Below are positions 10,183 to 42,087 of a stretch of DNA of 64,000 nucleotides, piece after piece. The stretch comes from Marsupella aquatica (taxonomy: Eukaryota > Plantae > Marchantiophyta): positions 10,444,286 through 10,508,285 of the forward strand of contig OZ316898.1 in assembly GCA_973895155.1 (NCBI GenBank), given 5' to 3'. The number at the start of each line of letters is the position of its first letter. Position 1 is the first letter of the stretch. The position numbers were made by a program, and so were the translations under genes. The notes beneath the pieces were generated by a model. The model had not been told where the DNA came from and ran no database searches. It was given only the letters and a program-made list of their open reading frames with translations.

Positions 10183-10283
10183 AACATGAGTTTTGACCCT
10201 GTTGTCACTTTAATTAGTGTAGACTTGTACCTGTATTGCTTCCAATTTTTGGGCATTTGAACAATGTTTTTCAATGAATAATT

Positions 10284-16069: not shown

Positions 16070-16183
16070 TAATTGTCCATATATCCTTGGAAAAATTTGT
16101 ATCAACATTTGACTCCAATCATATCATGTAATGCCTTACTAAACATGACCCATATATATGTTTTGTTTTGTTGTTCATACCAG

Positions 16184-19100: not shown

Positions 19101-19327
19101 GAGTGTGGTTTCACTAGGTTGAAGACCGCTGCATCTAGCACCATCAGGCAAGATTGGTCAACTTCTGACCCATTTGCCTTTCCTCACCAGGTTGAACAGT
19201 GTTTCTACCTAGCATACCCCCCGACCCTGAGGAATGGTCAGTTGTCATCCCTTACACACCTCGTACTCGATCAGTTGTCCAGGGGGCCCCTGAGATTGTT
19301 TTAGTTCAGAACCTTGACGAGGAATGA
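16184..19327 (+). pseudogene. TnpD/TNP2-like CACTA transposase of CACTA-1 (Transposase_21, DUF4218, DUF4216-like), disrupted
   Basis: IHACPNDCILYR..CPEC, RYFPLIPRL, RNVRLGLATDG, WPVVLMNYNIPPW, DPMHIEGN, LKTHDWH, PPSFFD..HLLVHL, WMYWVERYM, YYGKIEEI, DPFAFPHQVEQCFY. Stops at 16784 and 18166, frameshifts, and an apparently missing segment near 17160-17395. Confidence 0.92.
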
Positions 19328-19647: not shown

Positions 19648-22600
19648 TCACATCCCAGTGACAATGCAACCTCTGCCAAAAGAGAGCCAACCCCTACGTC
19701 TCTCATCAATCCAGGTTTTGGCCCTAAGAAGTCTGGTGCATTTCCTACCTGGAAGAGAACGGCGACTAACTGCATACAGATTCTCAGCCGCCTTAGTAAG
19801 AACCAGGCCCAAATCAAATGAGCGTCTGCCATGCAAATGGAACATATGTGTGTTCCGCCCCATCCAAAGTCGCCACAGAATCTGATGCAAAACAAAAAGT
19901 TGTGCAACCTGTTTCTCATCTTTCCCATAAGCAGCCTCCAACAAGACATTCAGACCTTGACCGAATGGCATACCCAATCCACTAAGAAAGGCCTGACATA
20001 TGCTCCAGCTTCTAACTGCATGTGTGCATCTGAAAAAAATATGGGGAATAGTCTCCAATACCTCGCAGCAAAGTTTGCAGTCTCCATTGCTTACATTGAT
20101 TTTGAGCGCACCGCTCTCCAGAAAAAAGACCCCCTACAATAATCCTCCATATAAAGGTCTTGCCTCTGACTGGCAAATCAGAGCTCCATAGCTTGGTCCA
20201 TCCCACATTCCAAACCAGCTCCGGTTGGGAGAGAGACCAAATCCTGTTCAGCCTCTCATGAGTAGAGGTTTTGGGTCTCAAAAAATCGTATACTCGACAG
20301 TTCTCAATCCTGAAGTTCCTCAGACCAGCTCCTGCATTGTCACTCCAGCGCCATTGCTTGGCATACAGGAAGTATTCAGTACAACAGAAATCTGTGCTCC
20401 ACAGACGCTCTAAGAAAGACCTGGCCAACAGCCGATGCTCAGCCGAAATACTTCGAATGTTGTGCCATCTCAAAGGAAGGTCCTTCCAGCATCCATCCTC
20501 CGTCGACCATCCATCCCCAATAGTCCTCATTCCCAGTCTGCCACAAATCGCAGCAATAGTTGTAATTGTCGCATTGGGTAGCGAATTGAAGCCAACCATG
20601 CATCTAAGAGTGTTAGAGATGCTCCACCTTGCTGGCGGTCCCATTCGTCCAGGTTCAAATGAAAGATGAGCCCTAACCAGTTCCCAACTCTTCCACAAAC
20701 CTGTCGTGTAAGGTAGACCACTAAATGAACGAGGTGAACAGAGTAAGAGCTGGTCTTGGAAGGAATAGCCATTTCTTCTAATAACCTTATAGTTCATCCA
20801 TCCCATCAACGATAAGTTTGCTGCCAACATCCGAGACCATTCCAGCTCCTGGAAGTTAAGTGCCTTAGTGAACCATTGTGAAAGAAGAGCATCAGAGTGG
20901 CTGCAAAAATCCCTGAATCCAAGTCCACCCTCCACCCTTGGACGTGCCATCCTATCCCAAGCCACCAGAGGAATTTTCTTGCCTCCAACCGCATTATAAC
21001 CCCATAAAAAGTCTCTGCTGAGAGCAATTACCTTCTTTGCTAATCCAGCAGAGGCTTTGCAGTACATAACATGATAAATAGGGATAGCAAGCAAGACTTG
21101 CTTCACAAGCAGGGAACGTTCGGTGAAAGAGAGTAATTTGTTTGACCATGCTGACAGCCTAGAGCTGATCTTGTCAAGGCAGAACTTGTGGAGTTGCTTG
21201 TGGAGCAGCCCCACGCCCAATGGAGCACCAAGGTACTTCTGAATCTCCCCTCTCCCGCTAATAAGGCAACCTGTTTTTCTCAGCCACTCTGGTACAATCT
21301 CCATAGCCAAGGGAATCACCACTGATTTCTCCAGATTCAGCTTCGCACCGGTGGCTGTCTCATAGCATTCCAGGGCAGTTTTTGTATCCTCAAAATCCTG
21401 TTCTGTAGCCGGGATAAACATCCCCACGTCATCCGCAAAGAGTCTATAGCAAATCTTGAAATCCTCTCTAATCTGCAAACCATTTAATCGTCCTCCTTCC
21501 ATCTCCACAGCAAGAAAATCCATGAGTGGCTGAGTGGAAATCACAAACAGCAGCGGCGACAGGGGGCAGCCCTGTCAAACACCACGCTTCAGCTCAAAGG
21601 AGTTAGAGAGGAAGCCATTCACCAGAGCACGAGAAGAAGCCTGTGCCAGCAACGCTTTTACTAGCATAATAAATCGTCCACTAATCCCTAACAAGTGCAT
21701 GCACTCCCAAATGTAATCATGACAAACTCTGTCAAACGCCTTTTCAAAATCAAGCTTCAGGAACAAGGCTTCTCTCTTCCGGTTGTGCACCCAATCACAT
21801 GTAAGCCAAGCAAGAGAGATGTTCTCCAGAATATGTCGCCCCGGGATAAATCCAGTCTGTTGGGGGCTAATGATCCTGTTAAGAATAGGTTTCAACCGCA
21901 GCCCAAGGATCTTTGCAATCAGCTTGTAAATCGTGTTTAACATGGTTAATGGTCTCCAATCTTTTAAAAAGCGCTTATCAGGTTTCTTAGGTATAAATTT
22001 AATTATCCCCTCACAAATTCCAGCATCTAGAGTCCCAGAAAGCCAAAATTCCTGAATCATATCCACCAGGTCTTGTCCCAGAAATCCCCAACAAGCTCTG
22101 TAGACCTCCGCAGTCAATCCATCTGGGCCAGGGGATTTGTCATTCGGTAGTAGCCACAGCACATCCTTTATCTCTTGGTAGGTTGGTAGCCTGTCCATCT
22201 AAAGGATCTCCTTGCCAGAGAGCGCAAATTGAGTATTCCTCAGCAATCTTGCTCTGGCAGCTCTCCTCACCTCCGTCTCGTCCACTGTAGAGGCAGCAGG
22301 TGAGTACAGGTTCACACAAAAATCTTCAACTTCTTTAAGGATTAACCGGGGGTCCGAGATAGATCTACCGTCCCTCCCGATCAGAGAAGTCATCGCTTCA
22401 CGAGATCGCTTAGCTTTCACAGTGGCAAAGAAGAATTTAGTCGATTCATCTCCCTCACCTAACCACTTTATTCTGGCTAGCCTGCGACCCCTGTGAGCTT
22501 CCTCTATCTCCATTGCATGTAGAGTATCTTCTGCCTCCATATAATCTGCAATATCAACTTATGAGTGAGCTTCTAAAATGGCCAACTTGAGCGAACGAAG

Positions 22601-23635: not shown

Positions 23636-24566
23636 TCACAACCTATTTCTCCCTCCCGGAGACATCCCCGCTCCCAGGTGTCCTGTGGGTCCACTTATGT
23701 ATCCACTTAAAGAGCGAGCAGGCGAGACTCTAACTCGCAAAATAGTCTCCATCTTCTCCCTACCACGCAGGGCAGACAATTGGCCCACCGTCTCCCCCTC
23801 GTTCGAACTCCGAGTAGGAATTCCCTCTCCCTCTACATCAGACATGAAACCACGTGAGAACCTTAGATATCTTTGCTTCTTTGCTTCTCCTTTGGCTTTC
23901 TCAGTCTTATCATTAGGGGGGGTACGCAGCTCTTTCTTCCTAGCTCTGGCCTTGAATTTACTATGGAAGATATACGCTTCATACTCAGACATCTCAGCAT
24001 CCGATTCCTCATGAAAGGAGAAGGTCTCGTCTGCTCCAACACACAGATTGGAAGTAGGGGTACATCCTGCCATCCCGATCGGAGCCACAGTGAGGGAAAA
24101 AGCCGGCCCAAAGCAGGGCGCATTCGCGTCCAAAGGAGGGTCCCTGTCAAACTCATTCCTCAGCATATCAGATGGGTTATCCAACCTAATCGTTTCAGAC
24201 TGTAACGCAACTGTCTCCGTAGGGGGGCACAAGTCACATACACCCACATCCACGTTTGTAGTGATGCTCAAAGGGTCCTTGTCTACTTGCTGCACCGTGT
24301 CCTTATCACGAGCCACCGTCTCTAAGGGCACAGGATTAAGCAATGACTCCACCTGCTCGCTATCATCTTCAACCGATACAGTCACCGGCCTTGGTGGGGG
24401 CACCTTAGCAGCACAAAACAACGCTCTAGCCTCAGTATTAGCCTCTGCTCTTCAGATTTCCTTGGGGTCAGCCTCCGAGTGGCGCTTATTGTCCTTCACT
24501 TCTGGTGGGTCAACTTCCTTCTGAGTCTTATCTGCCGTCTCTAAATTCTCTTGGCAGTTGCGCGCC
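23636..24566 (-). pseudogene. LINE ORF1, C-terminal part
   Basis: Continues the zinc knuckle (…LARNCQE) after the CACTA-2 insertion; low-complexity tail runs up to ORF2. Confidence 0.75.
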
Positions 24567-24599
24567 AGGCACTAGTAGAAACCGGGGGGTATTTAGACC

Positions 24600-24900
24600 C
24601 CATTAAACGACTATTCAGTACCGTATAGGACTTGGAAACGACTGGGAAGGACTCCAGTCCTTTATAGGACTGCGAGTCGTATGTTTTGTTACTATAATCA
24701 ACTGAGTCCTTTATAGAACTGGTTTATAAGTCGTTTAATAGACTGGATTTTCAGTCTATTTTAGTCTTTGTGTGGGTAGCTTTGGTGAGTCGTTTTCAGT
24801 CTTTTATGGGCTGAGATGGTGAGTCGTTGGGAACGACTAAAAAGGTTATGGAGGGTAGTCTTTAAATATACTTTGTGGGGTATGTATAAGTCTTTCATGT
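24600..24900. repeat. Left subterminal repeats of CACTA-2 (AGTCGT/AGTCTT and ACGACT/AGGACT cores)
   Basis: Many AGTC/GACT copies in both orientations; a similar cluster lies at about 40670-40880. Confidence 0.7.
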
Positions 24901-25396
24901 CAACTGGATATGAGTGATGAAGACCCCACTATACTACTTGGAATGAACCCACTCTTGTGCACAAATAACATATTGCATTCATGTTTTATTGTGTACTTGA
25001 ATGAACTCACTCTATAAGTTCACCATTCATCATGTTAACATTAGAATACATAGTTTCAGAAAGCCATCTTCTATACCATGTACACTAATATGAATTCACA
25101 GATTCAAACTTCATAGACTACAAAGAAGGTCACAAAGTATTCCTCTATACCATACACACTAATACTGAAATGATACAAAACAGATTCAAGTATCATAGAC
25201 AATCACCATAGAGCCATAGTTTGACATCAATCACTTGTTTCATACATACAGAATTCAGAAATATCAATGTCACACACAACGGCTCCTTCATCCTCTTTAC
25301 CAAATGGAAAAATTGGTACAGATATTTCTTGGATCTTTCCAAGGCAATGTCAAAATGTGACACAATTCACATGATTCTATCTACACTTGCATTCAG

Positions 25397-28300
25397 TCAC
25401 TGCAGACTAACACACTCTGATGGCCAGAGCACAAGAGATCCTACTGCATCTGCAATTATTTCCTGAGGTGGATCATCGTCTCTATTCAGAAATGGCAAAT
25501 TACAATCAAATACAATCACTGTAGTCAACAACACTACTACATGGTCATCCGGGACCACTTTGCCATGGAATTTTGCATGATCCGGTCGCAAAATGCCTGT
25601 ACCCACACATACCTGCGAGTCATCCTCCCATGATAGAAGATTATGGACTGGCTCTGCTGTGGCTATCACCTCCACCTTACCCTGGCTGTTTTTCTTGGCT
25701 TTCCTGGGTGGCTTATACATGACATTATTCATACCTTGGTTGCGAGTCATGACTTTGGCACGAGTGTTTTGTGCTGATGATCGAGAATTGGCTACACTCT
25801 TCTTCAAAGAATCTGCATCCATATTTGACACTTCTGATTGTGTAGCAGGATTTCCCTGCGACATCATCTCAGTATCTGCCAACATTGTACTTGCTTCAAT
25901 TGAAGCATCTACAATCTTACTTGCATCCAATGTTGCTCCCAAGTTTCGACGTCGCTTCACCCTGCTCCCACTTGGTTGAGAGTCTATCAACTCTGCATCA
26001 ACTACAATTCAGTGTCATGTCCAACATAAGTGAATCACTCATCACATGTGCTAAATGTACATGTCACCAACCACAAAGTTGTCACTATCTCCTTACCATT
26101 ATGAACAGCCTTCTTCCCCTTCTTTGCCATTGCCATATGCTCTATGTCTGCTTCTGTTGATCAATAAACACACCACAATATTCATGTTGAATCTATTAAC
26201 CACTGAATTGTTGCTCAACATTCATATAGAGGAATTTAAAGCATCAGCTTACTTGATACCTCCTTGGCTATGGTCACTGAGGCACTGGGCACATCTTCTT
26301 CATTATTGCTCTTTGAATCACCTGATACATCAATCATGATGTCACTTCAGATCCCAGTTCATCCAACCAGTTCTTACAGAAAAGATTACCTCCAACCGGC
26401 TTAAGCTTCACAAAACTCCATGCACTTTTCAAATGTAATGTACTGGATCATAGCAGGTTACCTGTCTCAGCAACCTTCTTGCCCTTCTGCTTACTGATTA
26501 CAGGGTCCTTCTCTGCCTCCACTCTTCCTGCATTCAAACCATTCACTCAATTCATGAAAACTTACTTCTAACATTTGAACATAGGACACAATGAACAATG
26601 GGCCGGTGTCATTTCCATACCTGTGTCAAATTTGCCAATTCCCTTTTTTGTTAACAAGGGCACACTTTGTACAATGTTGCCCTCATTGTTTGGTTGGGAA
26701 CCACCCAATTTTTCAATCACAAGCTTGAAATTAGATTCCACTGATGCAAGAAGGTTCGCTACAGATGCCTCCACAATATCCAAACGATCAGCCAATTTAC
26801 TTTCCACTCGAGGGAGTCCACACTCTAATGACTTCAACCGTTCACACATCTCTGTGAGAGTTGTAACAGTTCCCTGTCATAACACAACTTACATATCTTA
26901 GATAACTGTCCCCAAGAACTGGTTGCTTACTCCTACTACATTTCTTTCTGATGCTCAAGGCCAAATAGTCACAGAACATACAGAATTACAACATAATCAC
27001 CTATTTGGAAGTTACACTTGTCACCTCACTCCTTTGTTTCATGAACTCCTCTCTCACTTCTTGTGCTGATGGTTCTTCACCTGTCAATTTCTTCTGCAGT
27101 CCACATCAACATACATATGAATGAAACCAAGTGTTGATTGTCAATGAAAATGTAATAATGGTAGCAAGATGATAAGTTTGAGGCTTACTATCAGGCATGT
27201 CACTGCCTTACCAATTGTTCTTTCACTGGAGCATAACTTCCTCTCCCAGCCTGTGAAAGGTGTTTCACTTTGCCTCGAGCATTTGACATCAGTTCACTCT
27301 TGCTCTGTCCAGCCTCCGACATGAACCCTTTGATTAACCGTGTCCATTGATCCAGTTCCAATGATGGGGGTGGTGGCATTCTCCTGTTAGAACCATTGTC
27401 TATCCACATCCTTTTCAACCTATGCCTCTCTTGTTTCAAAATCCTCATTGCATAATCTGATATGCAATCTTCAACTGGGCCCTTACCATCATTACCAACA
27501 TACTCCCACCGTTCAAGAATGTCCTTGCAGATAGCAGCCCAATCAGCTTTGTTCTGACTCCTAAACTCTGTAATGCTCAAATCTAACCAACGCAATACTT
27601 CTCCTCTTAGGTCAGAATGCCAACGGTTCTTACCATCACATGTGGGAGTTATCCAACCTTCGGAATTCACTTCTACTTTACCAAATTTGTTACTGTCTCC
27701 TGCCTTGGTACTCCCTGAAGCGCTACTAGGTGTCCCTCCACGGCCTGGTGTCCCCCCACGGCCTGGGGTCCCTCCACGGCCTGATCTCCCCCCACGGCCT
27801 GGATTGCATTGTCCAAACCTCCCTGGAGTCCCTGCACATTTACAGGATCCATTTACAGTCACTTACATTAGGTAAGTATGAATCATAAATCCCGCTGCCA
27901 AATATACAATGGACTTCAGAGCAATTCTGTAATGACCAAGTTACCTCTCCCTTGGCGCATAGATGGTTCTAGACCACCTGTCCTATTGCTTTGTCTTGAT
28001 GAATTAGGGGCGTTTCTCCCGCCTGTGAATGATTGCCTCCTATCTGAACGTGGATGGCCTTTGTTGTTTTCGTGATTGTCCCAATCAGAGTCTGCATACC
28101 AACAGGTACATGCCACACTCATGGACCTGTAAGATAAACTCTTTGCCCTAGCTACACATCAGATAAGTGCATATTGAGCTAAATCTCTACTACCATCACA
28201 AAATCACTAGCACAAGGCACTTACTTGTCCAATCATCCTCCTCACCTTTCCATTGCCCTCTGTACCCGTCTCTACCACGCTCTGGGTGTTCATATTCATC

Positions 28301-28567
28301 CCATCCATCTTCTGCTCCATCATAGTCATCATCATAATTATCAGGCGTCCCTTGCCAATAACTCTGGCTCCTTCTAGGGTATGGATTATGTGATTTCTCT
28401 CTAGCTGCCCACCTACCTGGGACTTGATGAGGGCCCTGTGCATCTTGCACAGGTGCATTTTTCTGTGAGCCCCCTGCATCTGGGTCTCCATCCATATCCA
28501 ATCTTTCCTCTTCACCCCACTCTCCAAGCCCCATGTCTGTCTCCATGTCATCACCCTCTTCCCCCAT
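25397..28567 (-). CDS. TnpA-like (Tnp1/En/Spm) multi-exon gene of CACTA-2
   Basis: Acidic N-terminus, PGRGGT repeats, helical core WHSDLRGEVLRWLDLS...PPSLELDQWTRLI, C-terminal FHGKVVP..VVVLLTTV...LPF...DAVGSLVLWP; GT-AG introns. Confidence 0.75.
27725..27805 (-). repeat. 18-bp coding tandem repeat (PGRGGT/RGG)
   Basis: Repeated CCACGGCCTG units on the + strand. Confidence 0.85.
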
Positions 28568-28744
28568 AGCTTCTGCACAGCACCCACAACCAAACAGGGA
28601 GAATCAGCACACTAAATTCAAAGTATCAATCAATTTCATGCATATCCAACTATCCTAAACATCATTCCAGGCAGCAATTCCCGTTCTGTGACTCTGTGCA
28701 GGTAGTCATCCTCAACCTCATACTTGCCAATCGCCAGCTGTTGC

Positions 28745-31700
28745 CTATTGCAAATCATCAACCTCATCATATTCCATTTGCCCAGGTTCATCATATGTCT
28801 CTCTCAATGTTAAGGGGATGTAGTCAGTCCCTGCCCGAGTTGGAAGTACAGTCTCATGACTAGGATGCTCGAATGCAGCATGGTCATCCAAACTGAACTC
28901 TACTTTACTTCCATCCATCCGCCTGTTCCGTGCTTGGCTATGGCATACCACCCTCCAGCCATGTGACTCCTCCATATCTGCAAAGAAAGCCTGTTCAACT
29001 TGGCTAGGGAAAACAAAAGGCTCAGACCATTCTGGTACTCTGGACCTAAAATTGGCCAACAAGAACCCATCATGATCACGCTTCATGGTGGCCCTTGGTC
29101 TCTGCCACTCTGATTTCACCCATGATCCCTTCATCAATATCACTGGGACACTTGTGTTACCATAATTCAACACCCAAATGTCGGTCAACTCCCCCACGTA
29201 ACCCATCTTCATCCACCCCCTCTTTTCTTCAGAGGTTCTCTGCTCAAACACAGAAATCAAACCACAATCATATGATACACAATGGTCACCCTGCTCATCC
29301 CTCACTCGATAATGATTTCCATAAGCTCTCATCCGTTTGTAGGTCAGAATAGACAATCGTGGTGGCACAGATAGAAGATACAAATCCTTCTCCATATCTG
29401 GGTGATGTCTACTATGCTCTCGAATTGTCACCCGAATCCACTGCTCGAACTGTGGGAAGGGATCCTACTGCCCAGAGTGTGCAGCTTTTTGCATATCATA
29501 TTCCCTGCAATATGAGGTACAGGCATAGTTAGGTCTAAACAACACATGACAACCTAAGATCACCCTTGGAACAGACAAGAAGCATCACAACAAAGGCAAG
29601 TCAATTCAATCACTCACCTCCACCATGGTTGCATAGGCTCTGTGTTTGCCAGCACATATGAATGAGCCTTGTCTCGAATCGCAACAGGCAACTGAACAGC
29701 ACGTCCCACACCTTCAACAACCTCACCACTCACTCCATCATCTTCACCAGATTTCCAAACTCTTGTCATAGCTTCACCAGACCCAGCCATGTACTCTGTT
29801 AGGAATCCCAACGTCTCATCCTTAATGTACCCCAATGCCATGGAAGCCTCTGGCCTGTAGTATGTTCTCACATGACCTTTCAACAACTTCATGTATCGCT
29901 CCATAGGGTACATCCATCTGGTACTGACTGGCCCATACTGCCCTAGCTCTTCTACCACATGGATTAGGAGATGAGTCATAACATCAAAGAAAGCAGGGGG
30001 GAAGTATATCTCCAAGTCATAGAGGACATAAGCAGCATCCTGCTTCAACTGCTCCAATCCTTGGGGATCCCACACTTTCACACATATACGGCGAAATACA
30101 TTGCACAGTCGAAGAATGACATTACGAACTGGTTTCTGCATGAGACCTCTGAGGCATAGGGGCAGAATGTGCTGCATCAACACATGGTAGTCATGTGTTT
30201 TCATACTGCCAAGTTTATTCTTTGTAATATGCTTCTTGAAGGCACCAGCATAGCCAGAGGGCACTTTCAGACAGCTCAATCTATACAAGAATGTCTTCCA
30301 TTCATCCTGTGTGCACACATAGGGAGCTTGGAACTTGAGAAGTACATTGGGATTGCTTGCATGGGGCTTCAACCAAAGGTGAGGGCGAATCCCCTTCTGT
30401 TGCATATCAGCTCGAACTGCTCCTGTATCTTTCTCACCCGACAAGAACTTCAGCAAGCTCTCACAAATATTTTTCTCAATGTGCATGACGTCCACATTGT
30501 GTTTGCTGGGCTCGAATTCCTGCACTCCACAAAGCAAAGAATTCAACAACAGAAACACTAATTAACCACATAGGAGGATTGTAACCAACATCAATCCACC
30601 ATTGCTCCAATCTAAAATTGCAATCATACAGGGGTTGGAGGCTAAGTACATTACCCTCCAGTACTCCAACTCCAAGTCCATCAAGGTCTGTCTTTTCACA
30701 CCGTGTTTCACCACTGGATCCTCAGGTTCTCGATCAGTGGCACTTCTCTTGTCCCAATCAGCCTTCCTGGCTGCCCACCTCAGGACTTGCTCTCTGGTGA
30801 CCCTCTGTGGTGGGCCACGAAGCTCTGTTTTGTTGTTGAAGTGTGCAATTTGAGACCGTGTGTGCCTGTAAGGATGATCAACAGGCAGATACCTTCTATG
30901 CCCCTGAAATTTCATACTGTGCAGGGCATGCGACCACTCACTTGTCACATTTTTCCCACATGGTGTGCACCCCACATAGACCTTTGTCACTCGTCCAGAT
31001 ATGATGCCATGGCCTGGGTAATTTGCTATATCCAGCAAACAAATTGCATGCAGTCTAAAGGGGCTGGGTCGAAGAAGCCCCTTCAGAACATCATGGGTTA
31101 ACACCCCTTCTATCCACAAAGTCTTCCACTCTTCCACTGCTGGAGCCAACATGATATCTATGAATTGCTCGGTCACAGAAGCTGATCCAGGGATTAACAG
31201 CACCATCATGACAAAAAACCTCTTTGTAGTCATCCATGGGGGAAGGTTGTAATTTAGCAGCGTAACCGGCCAACATGAATAATGGTTGTTTTTGTCTCCA
31301 AATGGGTTTACTCCATCCAGTGATAGACCAAATCTAAAGTTCCGCTTCTCTACAGCAAACTGTGGCCACCTCTCATCAACAAATTTCCAATGGTTGGAAT
31401 CTCCAATGTGACGCTGCAGGCCATCACTGCTCTTGTTATCAGGAGTCCATGTCATCAGCTTGGAAATGGCAGGGCATCTAAACAGACGTTGTAGTCTAGG
31501 AATGAGAGAAAAATGACGAAGAACCTTGGCAGGGTGTGTACATTTCCCTACATTCTTGTACTTGTGCTTACCACAATGAGGGCATGTCAATTTATCTACA
31601 TGCTCTTTGCGAAAGAGAACACACCCATCAGGGCATGCGTCAATAGACACATAGTTCAGCCCAAGGTTAGACATCAATTTCCTAGCCTCGTACATATTTT

Positions 31701-32445
31701 TTGGAATTGAATTACCATCTGGTAACACATTTCGGCGCAGGAAGGTCAACAACTCTGTCACAAATATATTGGGAACATTGTGATTGCCACAGATGTTCAA
31801 CAACAACACGACAAAACCCAGCTTGGAGCAGTTCAACCCCTCATAGATAGGAATGCAAGCTTCTTTGATGTGTTTTGGGCCCCCAAACACCCACTCCCTC
31901 TTTGCTGCACCTTCCCCAATGTCAAAGTCAGGTTCAGCTTGGCCGTCGCCAATGTGTGGCTGCGGTTCATTGTCCTCTTCTGATTCCACTGTGTCGTAAA
32001 AAGCATCAAGGTCTTCAAAAATCTCTTGAACCATTCTTGGGACATCCATCCCACCGTCCTCAGTGACTGCCTCTCCATCTCCATCTTGGTCATCCACGTT
32101 CTCATGTTGGACCCCAGGACCATCCTCTGCACAGTCTATGTCCTGCTCTACGTAGTCTCTACGCCTAGCTGTATTAGAATCCACAAAGTCAGCTCTCCAC
32201 TCTTCATCAGAGGAGTCTTCTTCTGCTGGTACATTCCAAACCCTCCATCGAGGGTGCCTTTCATGCCGCAGTAGGTGAAGGTGCACAGTGTTCAAACTCA
32301 ACGACTTGAATCCTTGGCACTGTGTGCATGGGCATGTCATCCTCCTACTCCTACCTTGGGCGGCCCGGGCTTGTTCACGCATCCACAATTTAGAATCATG
32401 ATGCCTAATCCTAAATGGGTTGTGAAGAGGCAACCTTGGATCCAT
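28745..32445 (-). pseudogene. TnpD/TNP2-like transposase of CACTA-2 (exons about 32445-30655, 30519-29618, 29504-28745)
   Basis: CPCTQC..HL, IDACPDGCVLFR, RNFRFGLSLDG, NYNLPPW, DVMHIEKN, MKTHDYH, RWMYPMERYM, EPFVFPSQVEQAFF. One TAG at about 29465; the expected catalytic D appears as N in LDIANYPG. Confidence 0.92.
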
Positions 32446-32771
32446 CACTATACACACGCACTCAGCACCCTGTCATTTTATTATGCAAGTGAAAAATACA
32501 CTTCCTGTTAAGGATTTCACCCCCGACTGTACTTGCCAAAATACGTAACGTTCCAAAAAAACAAAAAAACAAAAAATATAGGTGCCTGAGTCATGTACCT
32601 ATTCTCAAGTGAATGAGACAAAATTCCTAAATGTTTGAGGGTGTCAACTCCTCCGCTGTCCTCACATGTACTGCCTCTGCACGTACATCCATGACCATAT
32701 CAGAGTCCAATCATGTATAGTCATAGACACAGGTGCCAGGTGCGAGACCGGTGTGAGATGTCCTCATCTTA

Positions 32772-33305
32772 CTACCACATCAAATACGGATACCAATCCT
32801 GTTGTCGATGCCACTCAGCCCTGAGGTACTCAGGCATGTACATTAAGTCATCAAGGTCTAAACCCTGCTCATGCCATGGTGGTCTTCGATCCGTGCCTAC
32901 AAGCAGTGGCAGCAGTGCCCTCCATGGTGCACATGTTGCTACCAAGTCCCTCCACTGGGTACTAATTAGTCTATATTTGCAGATATCTTGTGCGCCAGAC
33001 ACCACAAGAACCCTCGGCCAGACATGTGCAAGAACTATATCATCTGCCAAATCAGGCAACAAGGAACCACCTACAGCATCGTGCTTGTCTAACTCATCTG
33101 CTGAAAAGTAAATGTCCTCTTTCGACTGTGCATCCTCATTCACCACAACATTCACAACACATCCAAGGTCTGTAGGCATTATCTCGGATGGAGCTACACT
33201 CTGTCTGGTTACCAATCCACACAAGTAAGCCCAAGCAGTAGCCATGCACGATGCAACCCGTAGGAGGACCCTACATAGGGCCTGACGGTCTGGAAGAGGC
33301 AACAT
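32772..33305 (-). CDS. F-box-like protein (CACTA-2 cargo)
   Basis: SLLPDLADDIVLAHVWPRV...KYRLISTQWRDLV matches the plant F-box pattern LPGLPDDI...R.V...WR.LV. Confidence 0.65.
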   Translation of the reverse strand: MLPLPDRQALCRVLLRVASCMATAWAYLCGLVTRQSVAPSEIMPTDLGCVVNVVVNEDAQSKEDIYFSADELDKHDAVGGSLLPDLADDIVLAHVWPRVLVVSGAQDICKYRLISTQWRDLVATCAPWRALLPLLVGTDRRPPWHEQGLDLDDLMYMPEYLRAEWHRQQDWYPYLMW

Positions 33306-33481
33306 ACCCACCAAAGTCTTCAGCCAAACAGAGCCCAGCAAGTAGATTCACAATCACACCCCACGCAGCAAGAAACAACAATCACTTCAACTGCGACCAA
33401 CCATGACAAGATGAGTTAGTTCAAGGATCACATTTATTACAAAATTGTGATTTATACAAAAATATGAGGGACTCCTACTCC

Positions 33482-34330
33482 TCACTCTCTCCCACCTTTG
33501 CTAAGCATACATCTCCGCTGAATCTTGGAGGGCCAGGCCTCAAAAATATCAAAGTCCCAAGCATTTTGTCGCTTCCCTCTAGCTGCTGATTCCAGAAGCC
33601 AATCAGGGGAAAGCACCCAAAGATTGTTGTTCATGACAAAATCACGCACTGTTGTCTTAAAGAATTTTCTGCATATTTTCATGTATGACAGACCTACAAC
33701 ATGAGTGGAGGTTTCTGTTAGACTCTCCTCCACTGTCCCACCTAGCTCAACAACTATAGACTTGTACAATCTGCACTTAGTCTCCCCAATTCCTTCTTCT
33801 GCAAATACCACACTGAACCCCTTCATAATGGTATTTCTCTCCTTGCCATGCTCATTCAATATAGCATCTGCACGCATAGGATGGTGTCCTATGTTGACAA
33901 CAGGTCCATATTGGACAGAAGCAAAGTTGGGTTTCTCTGCCGCTGCTTCATAGGCTTCCTTTTCAGCCAAAGCCTCTGCAGTGGCCTCCTCACTCTCCCA
34001 CAACTCATATTGCTCAGTACTCTGTACACACCTATGTTTAACAGAATCGGTCAGCCAAGAGACTTCAACTACTTTTAGACCTTGGTTGGTAATGGCAGAA
34101 TCAATGAAGGACCATGACCAGTTGTTCATCACATCCAGCCATGTCCCCGCAACAACATGTGTAGTCTGTGGAGTGATGTCCTTGACTTCAGTCCCATGGA
34201 ACTCTGAGAATCGTTTTTGTACGATTGGCCAACTCACTTGGGTGAACCCATAGTGGCCAAGAATCAAAATGGCTTTGATTCCAGCCAACAGAGGCGGGTG
34301 GTAAACCTTTGTACGTTTCCTAGAGGCCAT
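33482..34330 (-). CDS. Tandem BRCT-domain protein (CACTA-2 cargo)
   Basis: Two repeats with BRCT hallmarks: G...G.V......THVV...V...WL.(D/E)S. Confidence 0.8.
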   Translation of the reverse strand: MASRKRTKVYHPPLLAGIKAILILGHYGFTQVSWPIVQKRFSEFHGTEVKDITPQTTHVVAGTWLDVMNNWSWSFIDSAITNQGLKVVEVSWLTDSVKHRCVQSTEQYELWESEEATAEALAEKEAYEAAAEKPNFASVQYGPVVNIGHHPMRADAILNEHGKERNTIMKGFSVVFAEEGIGETKCRLYKSIVVELGGTVEESLTETSTHVVGLSYMKICRKFFKTTVRDFVMNNNLWVLSPDWLLESAARGKRQNAWDFDIFEAWPSKIQRRCMLSKGGRE

Positions 34331-34928
34331 GTACACACGGGCCACCTAATCACTACAAACCGGAAGATAATGCGTTCACCTGATAATCGGAGGGCCCTTA
34401 AAATGCTGCGTTTATAACTTGGTCCAGTCCAGTCGTCTGGTGAGTCTCTGCTCCGATTCCAAACGGGAGAAATATTGGGACAAACGTACTAGACACCTGC
34501 AAGCATGCACCTCATAGTTCGAATATGTGCCTTGACAATATTGAAGGTGACAAGTGCAATTGTTTTGTGATGCCACATACAGATGTTGTAAATGGGCAGA
34601 CATTCAATGAGAATAGAAAATGTTGGTACACTTTAAGGGAATTCTCGCAAATTAAATAGCCTTGTAACTTATATGCTCATAATGAGAAGTCATGATTTAA
34701 TTTAAGCAGTGTCATGTAAGTCGTGATCAAAATGATTGCAGAGTTAAAAAAGTTCCTAGAAGGCTTAAGGGGAGTTTTTGAAGGCATGTACCCAGGAACA
34801 AGTAATGAACTTAGGGTACTTGTTGCCTAAGCATCCTCTCCTACAGAGGTCCTTCTTCTCAAAATTGGAATGTCTGCAATCTCCAAGGTATCCACATCAG
34901 GTGCACTATGCATGTACATTATTCAGGT

Positions 34929-35609
34929 TCAAAGCCAAGAAATGTGATCTCTCATGGGAGTGTGCAAAGTAGGATCTATGGCATGGCGATGACAATAGAA
35001 GATCCATCGATCAACACCATGTGCAGAGTGATGATAGATGTGTCTGTCACAAGCATAGCCTTCTGCTTGACGCTCCTTCAAACAATGAAAGTGCCACATG
35101 GTGGGACACCTAACACAGTGGACTATGTCCACCCAGAAATCTTCATCGTGCTGACCACATGCCTTGCACTTATGAAGTGGGCAAGCTGTGTCAAGATCGG
35201 GCAAACATGAAAAACAAAAGAACCTCACACAATATCTGTCAGGGCATTTCCTAACAAGTGGTGGAGCATCAACAGAGCCCTCATAAGACCCCAACTTCCC
35301 ACACTGTGCACACTTAGCCTGCTTCTCCAAACAATCAGTGCACATCCAGCCTCCCTGGTGTGCTGACGGGAGGCCCACCCCTGGACAGTTGTTTTCTGCA
35401 GCAAGGTCAGACTCCGGGTTGAGGTGGAAATGCCTCATGCAAGGGCCCTCACATATGGCTAAGCCACCACCATCGTCACAAATGGCACAACAATGAGCTG
35501 CCTTCTGGAAAATCTGACTTGCGGAGAAGTTACTACCATCTGGCCCAACTACACCTGTGTTGCTCACCTCTGTCCCTCGCTTCTTGGCTCGGATTTTAGG
35601 GCGTGCCAT
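34929..35609 (-). CDS. EDM2-like composite PHD-finger protein (CACTA-2 cargo)
   Basis: CAICDDGG..ICEGPCMRHFH...C..C....KCAQCGKLGS...C....C..FF...CPLHKC..C...HCVRCP..WH..CL...IFYCHRHAIDPTLHTPMRDHI matches the EDM2 PHD region as recalled (CAICDNGG..CCEGSCLRSFH...CPLHKC...CRRCPKSYHRKCL...LIYC..HEIDEELLTPVRDHV); basic N-terminal NLS-like RPKIRAKKR. Confidence 0.85.
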   Translation of the reverse strand: MARPKIRAKKRGTEVSNTGVVGPDGSNFSASQIFQKAAHCCAICDDGGGLAICEGPCMRHFHLNPESDLAAENNCPGVGLPSAHQGGWMCTDCLEKQAKCAQCGKLGSYEGSVDAPPLVRKCPDRYCVRFFCFSCLPDLDTACPLHKCKACGQHDEDFWVDIVHCVRCPTMWHFHCLKERQAEGYACDRHIYHHSAHGVDRWIFYCHRHAIDPTLHTPMRDHISWL

Positions 35610-36278
35610 GCCTACGCCTGAGACAGATAGTACAATTTAGTAGAGTGCACAGACAATACAATTTAGTGCAGTGTACAAAAAGTACAATGTAGCATATAGA
35701 CTAGAGTGGCAATTGCTACTGCAATGAAATGTTCACACACATGTGCAGAGTAGACATACTTTTTGGTTTATTGAGCCCACACTAAAAACTGATCCCCTTG
35801 TACAATAGCTCCACCTACACCTCAATTTTGTGGCTATGATTCACCAAAGGAGATCTGCAACAAGATTTAATGCATTTGAATCACATATAACAGTCGTGAC
35901 ATGTAAAACAGGCATTTTTTGAACAGGATTGGTATCAAGCAGTGTGATCAAGGTTGTAATTTATACATCCTAAATAGGCTATGATAGTGAATGAGACAAA
36001 TAAGTTAGGCATAAATCACTTTTTCCAGGTTATCACATGGCCCATTAATTCCAGTCTTTGAAAGGAGACTTTTAAGTGAGCTTGCTAGCCTCTTAAATTA
36101 GGATATTGTACTTAGTGCAGCCATAATAGGATAAGTTATGTACTGTTGACCGTAAACCCTGGACCCAAAATTGCTCATAATTCAAAATCTTAAGTAAATA
36201 TCCTCTCTGTTCAAGTCAAAGTGTTAAGTTATAGGTCAATGGTCTCTGGTCTGTGCATGCGGTGTGACAAGTGGTCTT

Positions 36279-36863
36279 CTACAGCGTGTGATCCAAACAT
36301 GTATAGACACCAAAGTGACCGGTGGTGGGGTCTGGGAGGGCAGGACAAGTGACATCGCCAGGCACACTGCAGGATGGCGAGTGGTTCCAGATGATACATT
36401 GTGCTCTGTGAAAAAACCGACATCCAAGAGAACAGTCATCCAACTCTAGGCCAGAAGCCCTACAGGCAGGACAGTCATACTGGCAACTGTGCACACACCC
36501 TTGGGCCCTAATTTGTGGCGGGTCATGTACGAGAGACAAAAATACCAAGGATGTTGGGAAGGGTGGAGAAGCAGGTACAGGGCGGCTATAGTTATTCCTG
36601 ACAACAACTGGGTACTCAAAGTACCATGCAGACTGGGCTGGAAGGATCCCAAGTCTGACATACTCAAGGTGCAACATCTCTACCTTGCGTGCAAGCCGCA
36701 CATGTTCAGCATTGCGGGTCCTCACCATAAGTGTTGCTTTTGTGGAGTGTCGTGTGTTCACGTCCTCTGATAAGCACCTTCGATCAGCAAGGTGAGCAGG
36801 AGCTGTACTTGCCTCACCAACAACAACCAACCTTAAATTATCAGTTCCCACTCACTGTGTCAT
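36279..36863 (-). pseudogene. Cys/His-rich ORF of unknown function (CACTA-2 cargo), probable early TGA at 36852-36854
   Basis: ATG ACA CAG TGA GTG GGA is in frame with the 190-aa ORF; Cys-rich C-terminal half; acceptor cctag| at 36878. Confidence 0.45.
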
Positions 36864-38269
36864 TCCATTGGTTCCAGCTAGGGGTCACAATGTAAACATA
36901 GCATGAAACACTCCTAATCAACTTGCTTACAAACTACAATATCCAGAAAGAGTGAAAGTCTCACCCTCCAGTGAGCAGCAGAGAGGTAGTTCACTGGATG
37001 TGTTGATGTGCAGTTAAACCTCCACTATTGCTTACTTCCGGTGTATGCTGCTCAGTCGGAGACATATTAGTAGCAGCAAATTGCAAATAATGGCCATAAG
37101 CAAACCGTGAGAGTTTGCAGAATGCTACGACAACTATTCATCCATCACAACAGTGCTCCACAGGAATGAAACCAAGCAAAATTTGGTGACCTCGGCCAAT
37201 GACAAGGCCAATGTAGTTCACAATCCTTGACCGATCAGGATATGGATTGGAATTACAATTAGTCAGCTCTTCTTCTTCTTTGTTTTCTAACTCTGGGGCA
37301 AATGAGCATGACCAGGGAATTCTCTGAGAAATAGAAGTGCACAGGGAAAATGAAATTGGCTCATTGAGTTGCGCAAGACCGCCCACTGCAGCATAAACAA
37401 ACTCATGAAGTGGCAGAAAGGATAGCGTCGCCACAAGCGCAAAATCCCGACAGGTTTAAGCTGCAAAAAACTAACCCATCCAAATGTGATTGCAATGGTG
37501 TTGAGGTCGTCTATTCACCACCCCACTCCACCGTGGGAGCATTGGGCACAAGGCATGTTCGGATCCAGGGAGGAGCAAAATAGTCATGTGAAGCAACAAG
37601 TGTGGAGAGACCAATAAGTAAACAAAAATAGGGAAGAACAATGCGGTGATCATGAGCAGCAGGAAACAAGGAAGTTGATTTGGGAGGGATTGTAGGGACA
37701 GAGCTTTTGGTGGGCTTGGCTGCGCGTTCATATCGGAAGATAGATGCGAGAGAGTGTGAAGAGGGTGGCAACCAACAAAGGCAGTGGCAAGCAAGCAAGC
37801 AATACACGATGATAGCGGCAATCGGCAATGGCGGTGGGAGGCAGCAATAGGCTAAATGACTATTCAGTACCAATCCGCAGCTCGTCCGATGAGAATGAGT
37901 GACATGAGGAAAATGCCAACACACTGACCCACTACCAAGAAGAAAGAAAACCAATCTCAACCACCCTCTATCATCAATGACAGGACATATATTCAAAAAT
38001 CCAAGCTGCAATTGACGGAAACAATAACATAAACAGAATTCTGAACATAAACTGCTCATGAAGCTTTCGGGATCATATATTCCAAGAGCAAATGTGAACA
38101 TGCCAATATATGAAAGCTCTGGCATATAGGGCATTGCATTCCATAGAGACGTCTGCACCAAAGAGCTTGGAAGCAATTGCCTATCTGCTGGAAGCAGGAA
38201 ACATATATGTAAATCCCAAGCCCATACTACATTGGAGATGATCAGCTCACTCAGACAGACATTGCATTT

Positions 38270-38422
38270 TGATTAACCAAATGTAGCAGGCTAGCAGAGG
38301 GATGAAGGATAGGGCCAACACTAATGCACAACAGTGAACAACTATGATTAACCAAATGTCAGTAGCAGGCCAGCAGAGGGACGGAGGATAGGGCCAACAC
38401 TAATGCGCAGTTGTGAAAGACT
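38270..38422. repeat. Tandem duplication of about 75 bp
   Basis: TGATTAACCAAATGT..AGCAGGC.AGCAGAGGGA.G.AGGATAGGGCCAACACTAATGC occurs twice. Confidence 0.85.
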
Positions 38423-40928
38423 GACAAATAGAAAGCAAACGAGAGCTTCAAATATAGAACATCAAACCTTCAGCAGCGGTCAATGGGCTTTGATTCACAG
38501 GTCGCCTGGCTTGGTCCCTTGTCGCAGCTCGCCCAGCTCCACAACACCGTAGACAAGGAGTTGGCTGGTCCAATTTCCACCATGCAGCGTTAGCAAAACT
38601 GCAATGCTTGATCTTCGCCCTCCGCCCTTTGCCCGAACCCCAAAATAGACCTCAAAGTAGAAAGCCAGCAAAGGGTTGAGCAGAAATCCCTAGAAAATCC
38701 CGCCTCTAAAGTCCATTGCTCGTGGTTACAAATGATGGCAATGGAACATTCGGGCAACCCAACAGTTGAACTGACCTCAATCACACCTACACCTGGTTGG
38801 CAGCTCCGCAGACACTAATTGTAGCTCTAGTTGAAGACATCATTTGAACAGCAAATCAGTCACAGCTCATGAATCCGTTCAGACTAGCATCATGGGTACT
38901 ACGTCGGAGCACTGCGCAAGAAGCCAGGAAAAAACTGCAAACATGGGGACCCACAGGCAAGAAATCTGGACCTCCGACACAATCTGGAAATCCTTTCGCA
39001 AACAACTGGCCCTCTCCTCAACAACTTGCGATGGTAGTAGCTTGCAATGGTAGCAGCTCGCGATAGTAGCTCCCTTCAACAAGCTTGGTAGTGCGATAGG
39101 AGCAACAACTTACAGAGAAGACAATGACCTCCCCTATGAGACTGATTGAAAGACCTCAATACAATTACTGAAGCAGGGATACAGAACGGGGAGAAGCCTT
39201 TCGCAGTTTGGGACGGCGAGAAGTGTGAACACTTAGGGCAGGGCCCGCAGGAAGGTCACTCAGTCCGAATGAGCCACAAGCTTATCGCCCAAAACCACGC
39301 AAACCTGAAGTTGAAATTAGCACTATGAGGTAGCAAGCTACAAAATAGCATTTCCCACATTCTTAATGCATGGCATCGGAGCTCATTCCGCCTAGAAAAC
39401 CAAAGCCACTACCAAAACTAACTTGCAAATGGAAGTTTGGACTAACCAGGGTGATTCAGGGCAGTTCAATGTCACTATGGCAGGTGCATTGCTGCTCGTA
39501 GCTGCAATGTACCTTAGCGCTCCCGGTCCCTCCACGGCTGCAACTTCCCAAGACCGGTCGGTCCCAGCCAGTCAGTCTTCTCTGAATCTTGGTGCGCCCA
39601 CGTTGTCTCAATCCGAAGCTGTCAGCTCTCAGGCAGGAGACAAATCTCCGCTTGCCTTCGCGCCAAAAGCTGTCACTGGCCTCAAGAGCCTCTAAGGCAA
39701 TGTCCGCAACGCCTCAATGTCTCCAACACCTCAATGTCCTTACCATCAAGCGCTTCTCAGGGATGCCTCAATGTCCTTACCACCTCACGACTGTCAAGGT
39801 CCCAAACCAGCGCAAACCACTTGCTGAACTCCTTTGTCCAAACAATTGTAAGGGGCATGCAGGTAGAACTGTCAAAAGCGCTCGCAGGAGTGGATGGCAA
39901 CAATTGACTACAATCGCCTCCCAGCTTCCCTCGCAAAATGTTAACCCTAAACCCTACTCGTATGCTCCACTCATAGAAGCAAAGCACAATGTTCTGTCGC
40001 ACAATGGGGCCCGAACACATGGGCGCAAGTACTCGATAGTTCCCTTCACAAAAACCCAATAATCACCTGATGACCAAAGCACACTCACCCTAACCCAATA
40101 CTTAGTGCAAGCAGTCATGTAAGCTCGTTTCCATTGAGGTGACCCGTTGAGCATAATAAGTACGTTTGTGCCAGAGTGTTAGGCAACACACAAAACTAAA
40201 GAGGGTTAAGGATAACTTTAAATAAATCCCTTTGGTGACAAAGTCATGGCCACTTAATTAGTTGTGGGCCCCCCTAACCCTCCCCCCCCCTTGTGGAATT
40301 AATCTTGGATCAAAAGGCACCATCATTTACACTCAGATCCAACAACATGTGGACTGTTCATTGTGTCAATTAGTGCCCATGACCCTGTCAAAACAACACT
40401 AGTTGGCAATGCGGAATATATCATGGTGTGGGAGTTGTACCTAGCTAGGGTTATAGTGATGCATTAGTTCCGGTTCTGGTTAGAAACCACCCTAAGCCCT
40501 CCAGTACAGTTGTACCCTAAGTTATGAAAAGTACCCGTTACATGGATATTTATGGTGCAATGTTAGTTAAGGTTGGTGATATATACAAGGCATGTCCTTA
40601 AGCACTTAGGCCCAAAAGTAGGATGTCGCCCTGTCCTTCTTAAGTATACTCTTATCATGAACCCTTGTAAGACTTTGTCTTATACTAGTCTTTGTGTGGA
40701 CCTTTAGAGTGATTCCAAGAACAAAACCCATGATGTCCTAGAGTGTTCACCCTTCACAAAGTAGCAAGGTTACTTTTCATAGTCTTTAACTAAACCGGAA
40801 AACACTCAAAGTCTTTTATAGTCTTTAACAAAACCTTGGCAATGGGTGCAAGTCATTTAAAGTATGGAAGAAGGACTTAGTGGGCTTAGTAGGTATGGTC
40901 TAAATTACCCCGGTTTCTACTAGTGAGG

Positions 40929-42087
40929 TGTCCTCTTTGGTTGCACCTAAAGCAATGATAAGGAATGTTTTTAAATGTCACTGGTTGCCAGATTACAATG
41001 TCAGCTCTGATTCGAATCCTTACACTAGCCGGTACTTCCCGATCCGTATCCCAGAGGATACAAGCTCGGTCATGGGGGTAAGAGCTAAATTCATTCCCTG
41101 AATGTAATATAGAAGGGTGCCCAGCGAGCTCGAGATTCTTCTTCTACATCCTTCTAAGGCAAGGTCTCGAAAGGGAATCTCGATCCAAACAGGAAGCTTA
41201 GTGAAGCTCTCACACTTCACATTGAATGTAGGATCCCAAGGGAAGGTGTAGACAAAGTGACGCTCCATAAACCAAGGCGCGAAGCTGAGCGCCAGGTCCC
41301 TGTGATCAGGGTTCTCAAACACAACCATGTAAAAATTCTTCCCGACAAATTTGACTTGTAAAATAGGCCAGTTCCCCTGACTCATCATCACGTCCTCCAC
41401 CCAGGCCCTGAATTCCGAAAGGAGAGGCGTTCTACCCGTGAAATAACAAATCAGAGCACAAGTGTATAGTTGTCTCACATTTCTTGCAGCTTCTGGCAAA
41501 TTCCATTCTACATCCGCGTATAACTTCTTATCAAGATTGCCCTTTGATCTGAGGGCAATGTTTCATAGGATTCTAATACATTCTTCTGATTCATCCTCCT
41601 CAAGAGCAAACTTCTTTACTCCAGCATCATCCCTTGGCCGCTCCCTATCCTCCGGTGTCTCCCCCGCTCCAACATCACAATTGTTCCGCCCAATGTCCAA
41701 GTCCGGCTGAGTTCCCCCCAGCCCATTCATGGTACTTGGTAAGTCGATGTCCATCCCTGAGTAAGATCCAGATTGCGCCCCCGTATGAATCCCTCCACCT
41801 CCCTTATCATTGTGCCGGATAGCTGCAATGCCAATCGAGGAAGTGCCTCTCAGGTCATTTCCTCCCGAACGCGCATCTTGCGCTGAGAAGATCCTCTCAG
41901 ACTCCCTGTTTTCCCCCCGTAGACCAGTCATGCACCCATTCACAGCTCCATTAGCCGTTCCGTTCCCATTGCCATCGCTAATTGTCTCCGGGAGAGCCAT
42001 AGTCACTCGGGCAGCACGACTTCCCTCAGGGCGGCCTCCCTTGGCATTCCTCCGTCCCGAAGGTCCATAGTAATCAATGTCTCCCAT
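40929..42087 (-). pseudogene. LINE ORF1, N-terminal part (DUF4283-like plus first half of the zf-CCHC)
   Basis: FVGKNFYMVVF...PWFM...FPWDPTF...LPVWIEIP; HCFRCNQRGH| at the CACTA-2 junction. Confidence 0.85.

What the first reader, a model, noticed from the sequence alone, without database searches (positions are those of the whole stretch)
28567..36879. Six co-oriented ORFs, each with a 3' splice acceptor 5-24 nt before its start codon
Minus-strand acceptor/ATG pairs: Cys-rich AG 36879-36878/ATG 36863; PHD ctcag 35619-35618/35609; BRCT attag 34347-34346/34330; F-box gaag 33319-33318/33305 (weak); TnpD gacag 32471-32470/32445; TnpA tgcag 28574-28573/28567. Known: Spm TnpA and TnpD come from one promoter by alternative splicing. 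Inference: a shared non-coding leader near the right TIR is spliced to alternative downstream ORFs, like a viral late transcription unit, which would let captured domains be expressed as soon as they are acquired.
Basis: inference. Interest (0 to 1): 0.78.

Follow-up and report, generated by a model that had tools for sequence, protein, structure and literature searches.

The report
Plant transposon with four passenger genes
A 16-kb plant cut-and-paste transposon carries four old, intron-free passenger genes ahead of its two core genes; only the two core genes have strong splice signals before their start codons, so the proposed six-way splicing from one shared leader is not supported, and the passengers are likely expressed as separate genes.

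Summary
The stretch lies in a 16,356-bp plant CACTA element (24570-40925, minus strand) with 18-bp TIRs, a 3-bp TSD and an empty site in three DNA runs. All six AG/ATG pairs are literally present, but only two hold up. The AGs before TnpD and TnpA rank in the top 1% of 389 background AGs under a model built from the element's own 10 predicted introns, as expected for En/Spm splicing. The four cargo pairs are not significant together (Fisher p 0.11-0.21). The Cys-rich 'start' opens a 3-codon frame; relatives start 135 nt further on. The PHD 'AG' is private to this copy in 5 of 5 runs. The BRCT acceptor was misplaced by 7 nt, and the F-box site is a weak AAG. Long AG-free tracts before PHD and F-box keep the idea alive (post hoc p 0.012). 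TATAAA boxes before three cargo genes point the other way (p about 0.05). No RNA run was listed. The cargo genes are conserved single ORFs, not fresh captures. One is a stand-alone EDM2-type PHD module, already noted by earlier scan reports on other copies.

The parts
24570..40925 (-). Whole CACTA element, 16,356 bp, inserted in a LINE
   Evidence: TIRs and TSD; empty-site joint 24566->40926 in X1, X2, X3; LINE domains either side
40908..40925 (-). 5' TIR (18 bp perfect, starts CACTA); TSD copy at 40926-40928
24570..24587 (+). 3' TIR; TSD copy at 24567-24569
37426..39925 (-). GC-richer, less CpG-depleted 5' region; candidate promoter/leader of this subfamily (inferred)
   Evidence: CpG o/e 0.56-0.65 in 4 of 5 windows versus 0.07-0.48 downstream; telo-box 39956, donors 39780/39743/40088; lower contig depth
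37030..37035 (-). Strong donor-like site in the part covered at high depth; candidate leader or 5' UTR donor (inferred)
   Evidence: score 5.3, at the top of the element's own donors
36878..36879 (-). Claimed Cys acceptor; weak score, not next to the true start
   Evidence: AG kept in one divergent X3 contig that lacks the claimed ATG (table 7)
36279..36728 (-). Cys/His-rich ORF, 149 aa, single exon, function unknown; true start 36728
   Evidence: no Pfam or fold match
35612..35619 (-). Claimed PHD AG (35619-35618, private to this copy) and family AG (35613-35612)
34929..35609 (-). Stand-alone EDM2-type PHD module ORF, 226 aa, single exon
34346..34354 (-). Claimed BRCT AG (34347-34346) and better family AG (34354-34353)
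33482..34330 (-). Two-BRCT ORF, 282 aa, single exon; TATAAA at 34416 upstream, TGTA/AATAAA 24-44 nt after the stop
32772..33305 (-). F-box-like ORF, 177 aa, single exon; AAG at 33319-33318, TATAAA at 33456
   Evidence: F-box only in relatives, best E 0.0011, below Pfam cut-off
32470..32471 (-). Strong predicted acceptor before TnpD, without a good local donor
28745..32445 (-). TnpD transposase, three predicted exons (32445-30655, 30519-29618, 29504-28745), one in-frame stop at codon 911 of 1151
28573..28574 (-). Strong predicted acceptor before TnpA
25397..28567 (-). TnpA-like gene, nine predicted exons, one stop at codon 401 of 748 (fourth donor uncertain)

Best explanation
This is a multicopy plant CACTA element in which TnpD and TnpA are likely spliced, En/Spm-style, from one upstream non-coding exon, while the four intron-free cargo ORFs (Cys-rich, EDM2-type PHD, two-BRCT, F-box-like) are old accessory genes that are likely transcribed from their own starts. 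Shown: the element's ends, the six ORFs and their starts, strong acceptors before TnpD and TnpA only, and conservation of the cargo proteins. Inferred: the splicing itself, separate promoters for the cargo, and the place of the leader donor (unknown; candidates 37035, 39780/39743, 40088, or 33212 inside the F-box ORF). The cargo likely serves the element against the host: the PHD module would read or mask methylated H3K9, BRCT would engage DNA-break repair, and the F-box would target a host protein. None of these functions was tested.
For: Acceptor model from 10 frame-checked internal introns (leave-one-out percentiles 87-100): TnpD 0.8%, TnpA 0.3% of 389 background AGs; cargo 77, 12, 41 and 11%, Fisher 0.20. 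A YAG-tolerant model gives 0.19 for the cargo. Best local donor for TnpD is -1.6. No TATAWA and no poly(A)-like motif between TnpD and TnpA. One TATAAA in each of the PHD, BRCT and F-box spacers and none in the Cys, TnpD or TnpA spacers; P(3 or more of 6) = 0.046. Cys start and PHD AG refuted. Cargo relatives are whole single ORFs with matching ends. Maize En/Spm, soybean Tgmt* and Arabidopsis EN/SPM3 and 7 use alternative splicing for TnpA/TnpD (PMC2613891, PMC13547354; passages).
Against: AG-free tracts of 87 nt (PHD) and 65 nt (F-box) are longer than background (Fisher 0.012 over four cargo ORFs), and family letters improve the BRCT acceptor. The BRCT-F-box spacer is only 176 nt and holds BRCT's poly(A)-like signal, leaving little room for a promoter. 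Two of the three TATAAA read TGTATAAA, which also fits plant poly(A) upstream elements (recalled). All cargo spacers are CpG-depleted like the element body, and only the 5' region is not. The acceptor model rests on 10 predicted sites, all CAG. Four Arabidopsis EN/SPM families encode TnpD and TnpA as separate genes (PMC13547354).
Confidence: 0.5

Rival explanations
1. One reading: one promoter and a non-coding leader are spliced to alternative acceptors before PHD (35612), BRCT (34353), F-box (33318), TnpD and TnpA, each cargo ORF being an alternative last exon with its own poly(A) site.
For: All six ORFs are co-oriented and the cargo ORFs are intron-free. Long AG-free tracts before PHD and F-box. 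The family BRCT site is a TGCAG. AATAAA follows 3 of 6 ORFs. Only the 5' region is CpG-rich. No upstream ATG lies between acceptor and start for 5 of 6 ORFs. One divergent contig keeps the 36879 AG while neighbours change.
Against: Cargo acceptor scores are not above background on two models. The Cys pair is wrong. The element's real acceptors have AG-free tracts of only 3-88 nt (8 of 10 under 30), and the PHD tract lies in a 26-bp tandem repeat. The tract statistic was one of three tried. TATAAA precedes three cargo ORFs.
Confidence: 0.2
2. Split-gene architecture throughout: all six ORFs have their own promoters, and the TnpD and TnpA acceptors close short local 5' UTR introns (for example 32598->32470, 28723->28573).
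For: Arabidopsis EN/SPM2, 5, 6 and 9 have TnpD and TnpA as separate head-to-tail genes (PMC13547354). Each candidate acceptor has a GT 80-170 nt upstream, the element's normal intron size (Fisher 0.052).
Against: Local donors for TnpD (-1.6) and TnpA (1.3) are weak. No local intron in the 5' half reaches the scores of most internal introns. The TnpD-TnpA spacer is 177 nt with no TATA or poly(A) motif.
Confidence: 0.2
3. The cargo block is read as long read-through RNA with several small UTR introns (acceptor-like sites at 36159, 35855, 35719, 34497, 32677), and downstream ORFs are reached by variable splicing, as in soybean Tgm-Express1.
For: These spacer AGs score higher than the claimed cargo AGs. 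CACTA cargo is spliced erratically in soybean (PMC1947982, abstract).
Against: Minus-strand intron-like pairs in the 5' half are barely more frequent than on the plus strand (11 vs 8 at score 3; 6 vs 2 at score 5). The cargo ORFs are conserved whole genes, not fragments.
Confidence: 0.1

Closest known systems
Maize En/Spm; soybean Tgmt*; Arabidopsis EN/SPM3 and EN/SPM7 (PMC2613891 and PMC13547354, passages)
   Same: CACTA TIRs, 3-bp TSD, TnpD upstream of a multi-exon TnpA, strong acceptors before both, no poly(A)-like motif between them.
   Different: Four extra conserved ORFs lie ahead of TnpD; no transcript evidence here. That Spm exon 1 is non-coding is recalled, not read.
Large EnSpm/Plavaka elements with accessory genes: Chondrus 16-20 kb En/Spm with 4-5 ORFs (PMC6431247, passage), Bostrychia Plavaka PAG1-3 (10.1101/2025.02.11.637652, passages), fungal TET/JBP-carrying EnSpm (PMC12730594, passages)
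   Same: Size, a stable cassette of accessory genes, chromatin-related cargo.
   Different: The cargo here is an EDM2-type PHD module, two-BRCT, F-box-like and an unknown Cys-rich protein, in a land plant. The passages read do not describe how those accessory genes are transcribed.
EDM2 (Arabidopsis; PMC7529245, passages)
   Same: The 2.5-PHD module through its C-terminal motif: 30% identity over 211 columns, E 5e-19, to an unnamed plant RFD+PHD protein (L002) that has EDM2's architecture.
   Different: No RFD and no methyltransferase-like domain; 226 aa only. No named EDM2 sequence was compared; the label rests on architecture and recall.
Pack-CACTA / soybean Tgm-Express1 (PMC1947982 abstract; PMC13317346 passages)
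   Same: Host-derived sequence inside CACTA ends.
   Different: Those carry gene fragments spliced erratically; here the ORFs are whole, intron-free and conserved.
Adenovirus major late transcription unit (recalled)
   Different: An acceptor before every ORF was tested and not met.

Membership tests
CACTA/EnSpm superfamily | TIRs beginning CACTA and ending TAGTG | tested here: met
   18-bp perfect TIRs at 24570 and 40925
CACTA/EnSpm superfamily | 3-bp target-site duplication | tested here: met
   empty-site joint with 3 shared letters in 3 of 4 runs laid
CACTA/EnSpm superfamily | TnpD transposase (Transposase_21, DUF4218, DUF4216) | tested here: met
   E 1e-57, 8e-26, 1e-5; spliced frame of 1151 codons with one internal stop
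CACTA/EnSpm superfamily | TnpA-type second gene (Transposase_24) | tested here: inconclusive
   PF03004 at E 0.044 only, below cut-off; position and multi-exon layout fit
Spm-type single transcription unit | Acceptors before both TnpD and TnpA | tested here: met
   top 0.8% and 0.3% of background AGs
Spm-type single transcription unit | Shared first exon in TnpA and TnpD mRNAs | not testable with these tools
   needs RNA
Leader-plus-many-acceptors unit (viral late type) | A real acceptor just above every start codon | tested here: not met
   Cys fails; PHD, BRCT and F-box are individually p 0.10-0.29
Leader-plus-many-acceptors unit (viral late type) | A poly(A) site after each ORF | tested here: inconclusive
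   AATAAA within 450 nt after 3 of 6 stops; plant signals are degenerate
Leader-plus-many-acceptors unit (viral late type) | One promoter and one leader exon | not testable with these tools
   needs RNA; several donor candidates
EDM2 family | 2.5 atypical PHD fingers | tested here: met
   35 invariant columns across 4 element-type and 2 plant proteins, most Cys/His kept
EDM2 family | N-terminal RFD and methyltransferase-like domain | tested here: not met
   the ORF is 226 aa and ends right after the PHD module, as do 5 of 5 relatives
EDM2 family | Binding to H3K9me2 and suppression of proximal polyadenylation | not testable with these tools
   function of EDM2 from PMC7529245

The most novel reading that the evidence does not exclude
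The element is one transcription unit in which a 5' leader is spliced to five or six alternative downstream exons, and its own EDM2-type PHD protein reads H3K9me2 on the element to set how far transcription runs past the internal poly(A) sites. That would choose between cargo mRNAs and transposase mRNA: a transposon carrying its own copy of the host's intronic-heterochromatin read-through switch.
Probability: 0.12. Interest if true: 0.8.

Novelty: new variant of a known kind. Interest (0 to 1): 0.4.

Why it matters
The splice pattern as reported reduces to the known TnpA/TnpD case, so by itself it is ordinary. The element still matters as a high-copy plant CACTA with a stable four-gene accessory cassette. 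If TnpD and TnpA are spliced from a leader above that cassette, their pre-mRNA must pass 4-8 kb of silenced DNA with internal poly(A) signals, the problem host EDM2 solves, and the element carries an EDM2-type PHD module. One long-read RNA experiment would settle how multi-gene DNA transposons express their cargo. The ten literature searches returned no paper describing either a multi-acceptor leader in a plant transposon or an EDM2-type PHD cargo; the library lacks most subscription journals.

Tried and rejected
RNA test: no RNA holder listed. All five runs laid are contigs that behave as DNA (empty-site joint, long records) and show no minus-strand intron joints at the candidate sites among the joints displayed (15 of 98 and 15 of 18 shown); this says nothing on expression. 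No whole genome is held. DNA upstream of the divergent cargo relatives could not be obtained, so acceptor conservation at depth is untested: the TnpD metagenome scan found 0 of 160 candidates, the F-box viral scan 0 of 70, and the PHD metagenome scan 9 of 221, those inspected (3 of 9) being cellular plant or protist PHD genes. The cluster look-up could not be made. I first read the Cys AG as the end of an 87-nt coding intron and dropped this when relatives showed the start at 36728. I suspected the F-box ATG was only part of a donor motif; relatives keep it in 2 of 3. My first TnpA intron-1 acceptor (28127) broke the frame and was replaced by 28092. The Cys ORF gave no Pfam hit, no Atlas hit for a homologue, a model of pLDDT 59.8 and no fold match (Foldseek best E 1.6, VIA best Z 4.4). 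The Atlas did not read the F-box ORF. Rfam: 0 hits. The sigma-70 scan is irrelevant to a plant and was ignored. Variant tables showed only 40 of 1102 and 40 of 118 rows, so an unlisted site is not proven invariant. Supplementary Fig. 4 of PMC13547354 (EN/SPM architectures) is a picture; only its legend was read. bioRxiv supplements were not seen.
Full report
Setting. The finding lies in a CACTA element on the minus strand, 24570-40925, with 18-bp perfect TIRs and a 3-bp TSD. It splits a LINE (DUF4283 at 41023-41562, RVT at 20015-21574). Contigs of three of four DNA runs join 24566 to 40926, the empty site. Five runs from three coded organisms hold the stretch, and they show many variant copies. 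The host is a plant by its elements; earlier AI notes call it a leafy liverwort, which I did not test. The order from the 5' TIR is: about 4 kb without a recognised gene, Cys-rich ORF, PHD ORF, BRCT ORF, F-box-like ORF, TnpD (three predicted exons, one stop at codon 911 of 1151), TnpA (nine predicted exons, one stop at codon 401 of 748).

Observation: starts. All six AGs and ATGs are where stated. The Cys-rich 'start' at 36863 reads MTQ-stop. Of six aligned relatives (a seventh hit, P0012, is a low-complexity repeat and was dropped), two begin at the Met matching 36728, three have unrelated extensions above it and one starts six residues later. A 1-nt insertion between the two ATGs is at full depth in X1 and X4 and a minority in X3. 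So that pair is not an acceptor-start pair. The PHD, BRCT and F-box starts are supported by relatives.

Observation: acceptors in other copies. The claimed PHD AG reads AT in 99-100% of depth in all five runs; the next AG lies 2 nt before the ATG.

Statistics. I trained an acceptor model on the element's ten frame-checked internal acceptors (all CAG; introns 93-140 nt where the donor is placed) and scored 389 non-coding minus-strand AGs. Leave-one-out percentiles of true sites were 87-100. TnpD scored in the top 0.8% and TnpA in the top 0.3%. The cargo sites scored at 77, 12, 41 and 11% (Fisher 0.20; 0.11 with family letters). Taking the best AG within the window above each true start against random anchors gave 0.21 and 0.18. 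A version tolerant of TAG, using recalled plant frequencies at position -3, gave 0.19, and 0.10 without Cys. An AG in such a window is present at 77% of random points, and six of six has chance 0.11. It was chosen after the fact, 8 of 10 true acceptors have tracts under 30 nt, and the PHD tract sits in a 26-bp tandem repeat. The background may include real leader acceptors, which makes the test conservative; ten training sites give limited power.

Other signals. TATAWA occurs three times in the element's interior, once each in the PHD, BRCT and F-box spacers. P(three or more of six spacers) is 0.046. Two of these read TGTATAAA, which could be poly(A) upstream elements instead (recalled). AATAAA follows BRCT, F-box and TnpA; nothing poly(A)-like follows TnpD; the AATAAA at 35772 is altered in most other copies. 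Local donors 80-170 nt above the acceptors are strong for Cys (37035), middling for PHD and BRCT, and weak for F-box, TnpA and TnpD. No normal-size intron in the 5' half matches most internal ones (those scores are not leave-one-out). Only 39925-37426 escapes CpG depletion, as a promoter region might. Contig depth over 37768-40552 is about 5- to 30-fold lower than over the body in all four runs. Depth is not copy number, so this is only a hint that the 5' region differs between subfamilies.

Cargo. Each ORF has intact single-ORF relatives: BRCT 1 at 61%, PHD 5 at 38-81%, Cys 6 at 28-54%, F-box 3 at 52-53%. They are long-kept accessory genes, not new captures. The PHD profile pulled plant transcripts from metagenomes. 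One encodes a 1295-aa protein with RFD and PHD domains and a methyltransferase-like motif visible in the translation, the architecture of EDM2 as described in PMC7529245 (passages). The window's protein aligns to its PHD module over 211 columns at 30% identity, E 5e-19, to the last motif; NSD2/3 match only the first 170 of 217 profile positions. EDM2 binds H3K9me2 and suppresses proximal polyadenylation in heterochromatic introns (PMC7529245; 10.1101/2022.09.21.507229, passages). I reached this reading before seeing that earlier unreviewed scan reports on two other copies say the same; that is not independent support. Those notes also place an EDM2-type PHD gene in P-like elements of this genome. 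If true, it travels as a self-contained gene, which I could not check. F-box is below Pfam's cut-off even in relatives. The Cys-rich protein has no family or fold match.

Mechanism. Most likely (0.5), TnpD and TnpA share an upstream non-coding exon as in maize En/Spm and soybean Tgmt* (PMC2613891, passages; PMC8195511, passages), and the cargo genes have their own starts. A corrected shared-leader model for five ORFs keeps 0.2. A fully split architecture, shown by long reads for Arabidopsis EN/SPM2, 5, 6 and 9 (PMC13547354, passages and section 10), keeps 0.2. Erratic read-through splicing as in Tgm-Express1 (PMC1947982, abstract) keeps 0.1. No step of splicing or initiation was observed.

Comparison. 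The element meets the CACTA tests. Large EnSpm-type elements with several accessory genes are known from red algae and fungi (PMC6431247; 10.1101/2025.02.11.637652; PMC12730594; passages only). PMC4158355 and PMC13317346, read as passages, describe two-ORF CACTAs and fragment capture. Ten searches listed no paper on a multi-acceptor leader in a plant transposon or on EDM2-type cargo. The adenovirus comparison and Spm's non-coding exon 1 are recalled.

Verdict. Observation partly confirmed (two of six sites strong, three unresolved, one wrong). Interpretation partly supported, for the part already known. New variant of a known kind; interest 0.4. The bold case, a self-regulated single unit using its own EDM2-type reader, has probability about 0.12 and would deserve 0.8.

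Noticed in passing
window 9346-19301 (+): A second CACTA: SET-domain ORF at 9346-10134 (E 1.4e-5) and TnpD domains at 16787-19301, interrupted by a copia element with LTRs 10284-10420 and 15933-16069. Matches the SET-carrying CACTA of earlier scan notes.
   Followed up: partly
window 234-5600 (+): Copia element with 99% identical 139-nt LTR match and a 1154-aa gag-pol frame broken by a stop.
   Followed up: no
window 37400-40550: 5' region with much lower contig depth than the rest of the element and a loose end at 37395 in three X3 contigs: subfamilies may have swapped their 5' or promoter region.
   Followed up: partly
window 34950-35629 and 36310-36819: Contig depth over the PHD and Cys ORFs is 2-4 times that over BRCT and F-box, a hint that these two genes also occur in other subfamilies or elements.
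   Followed up: no
window 37138-37455 (-): 105-codon open frame with in-frame indels in other copies (37134, 37268) and a GxxG-like stretch recalling a KH loop; no meaningful Pfam hit. Possibly a fifth cargo or a coding leader.
   Followed up: partly
window 27729-27802 and 39525-39549: 18-bp tandem repeat coding RGG repeats in TnpA exon 3, with an 80% copy in the GC-rich 5' region.
   Followed up: no
window 33212 and 32469-32446 (-): A donor inside the F-box ORF after 31 codons (score 3.5) would join in frame to the TnpD acceptor, whose 24 nt before the ATG are open; an alternative place for the TnpD leader.
   Followed up: no
L001:679-1665: A plant transcript encoding a stand-alone EDM2-type PHD protein of 328 aa that also begins MAR-K; its genomic context is unknown.
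   Followed up: no
window 48361-48722 and 57274-57544: Tandem repeat cluster and a 53-nt inverted repeat pair, probably ends of other elements.
   Followed up: no
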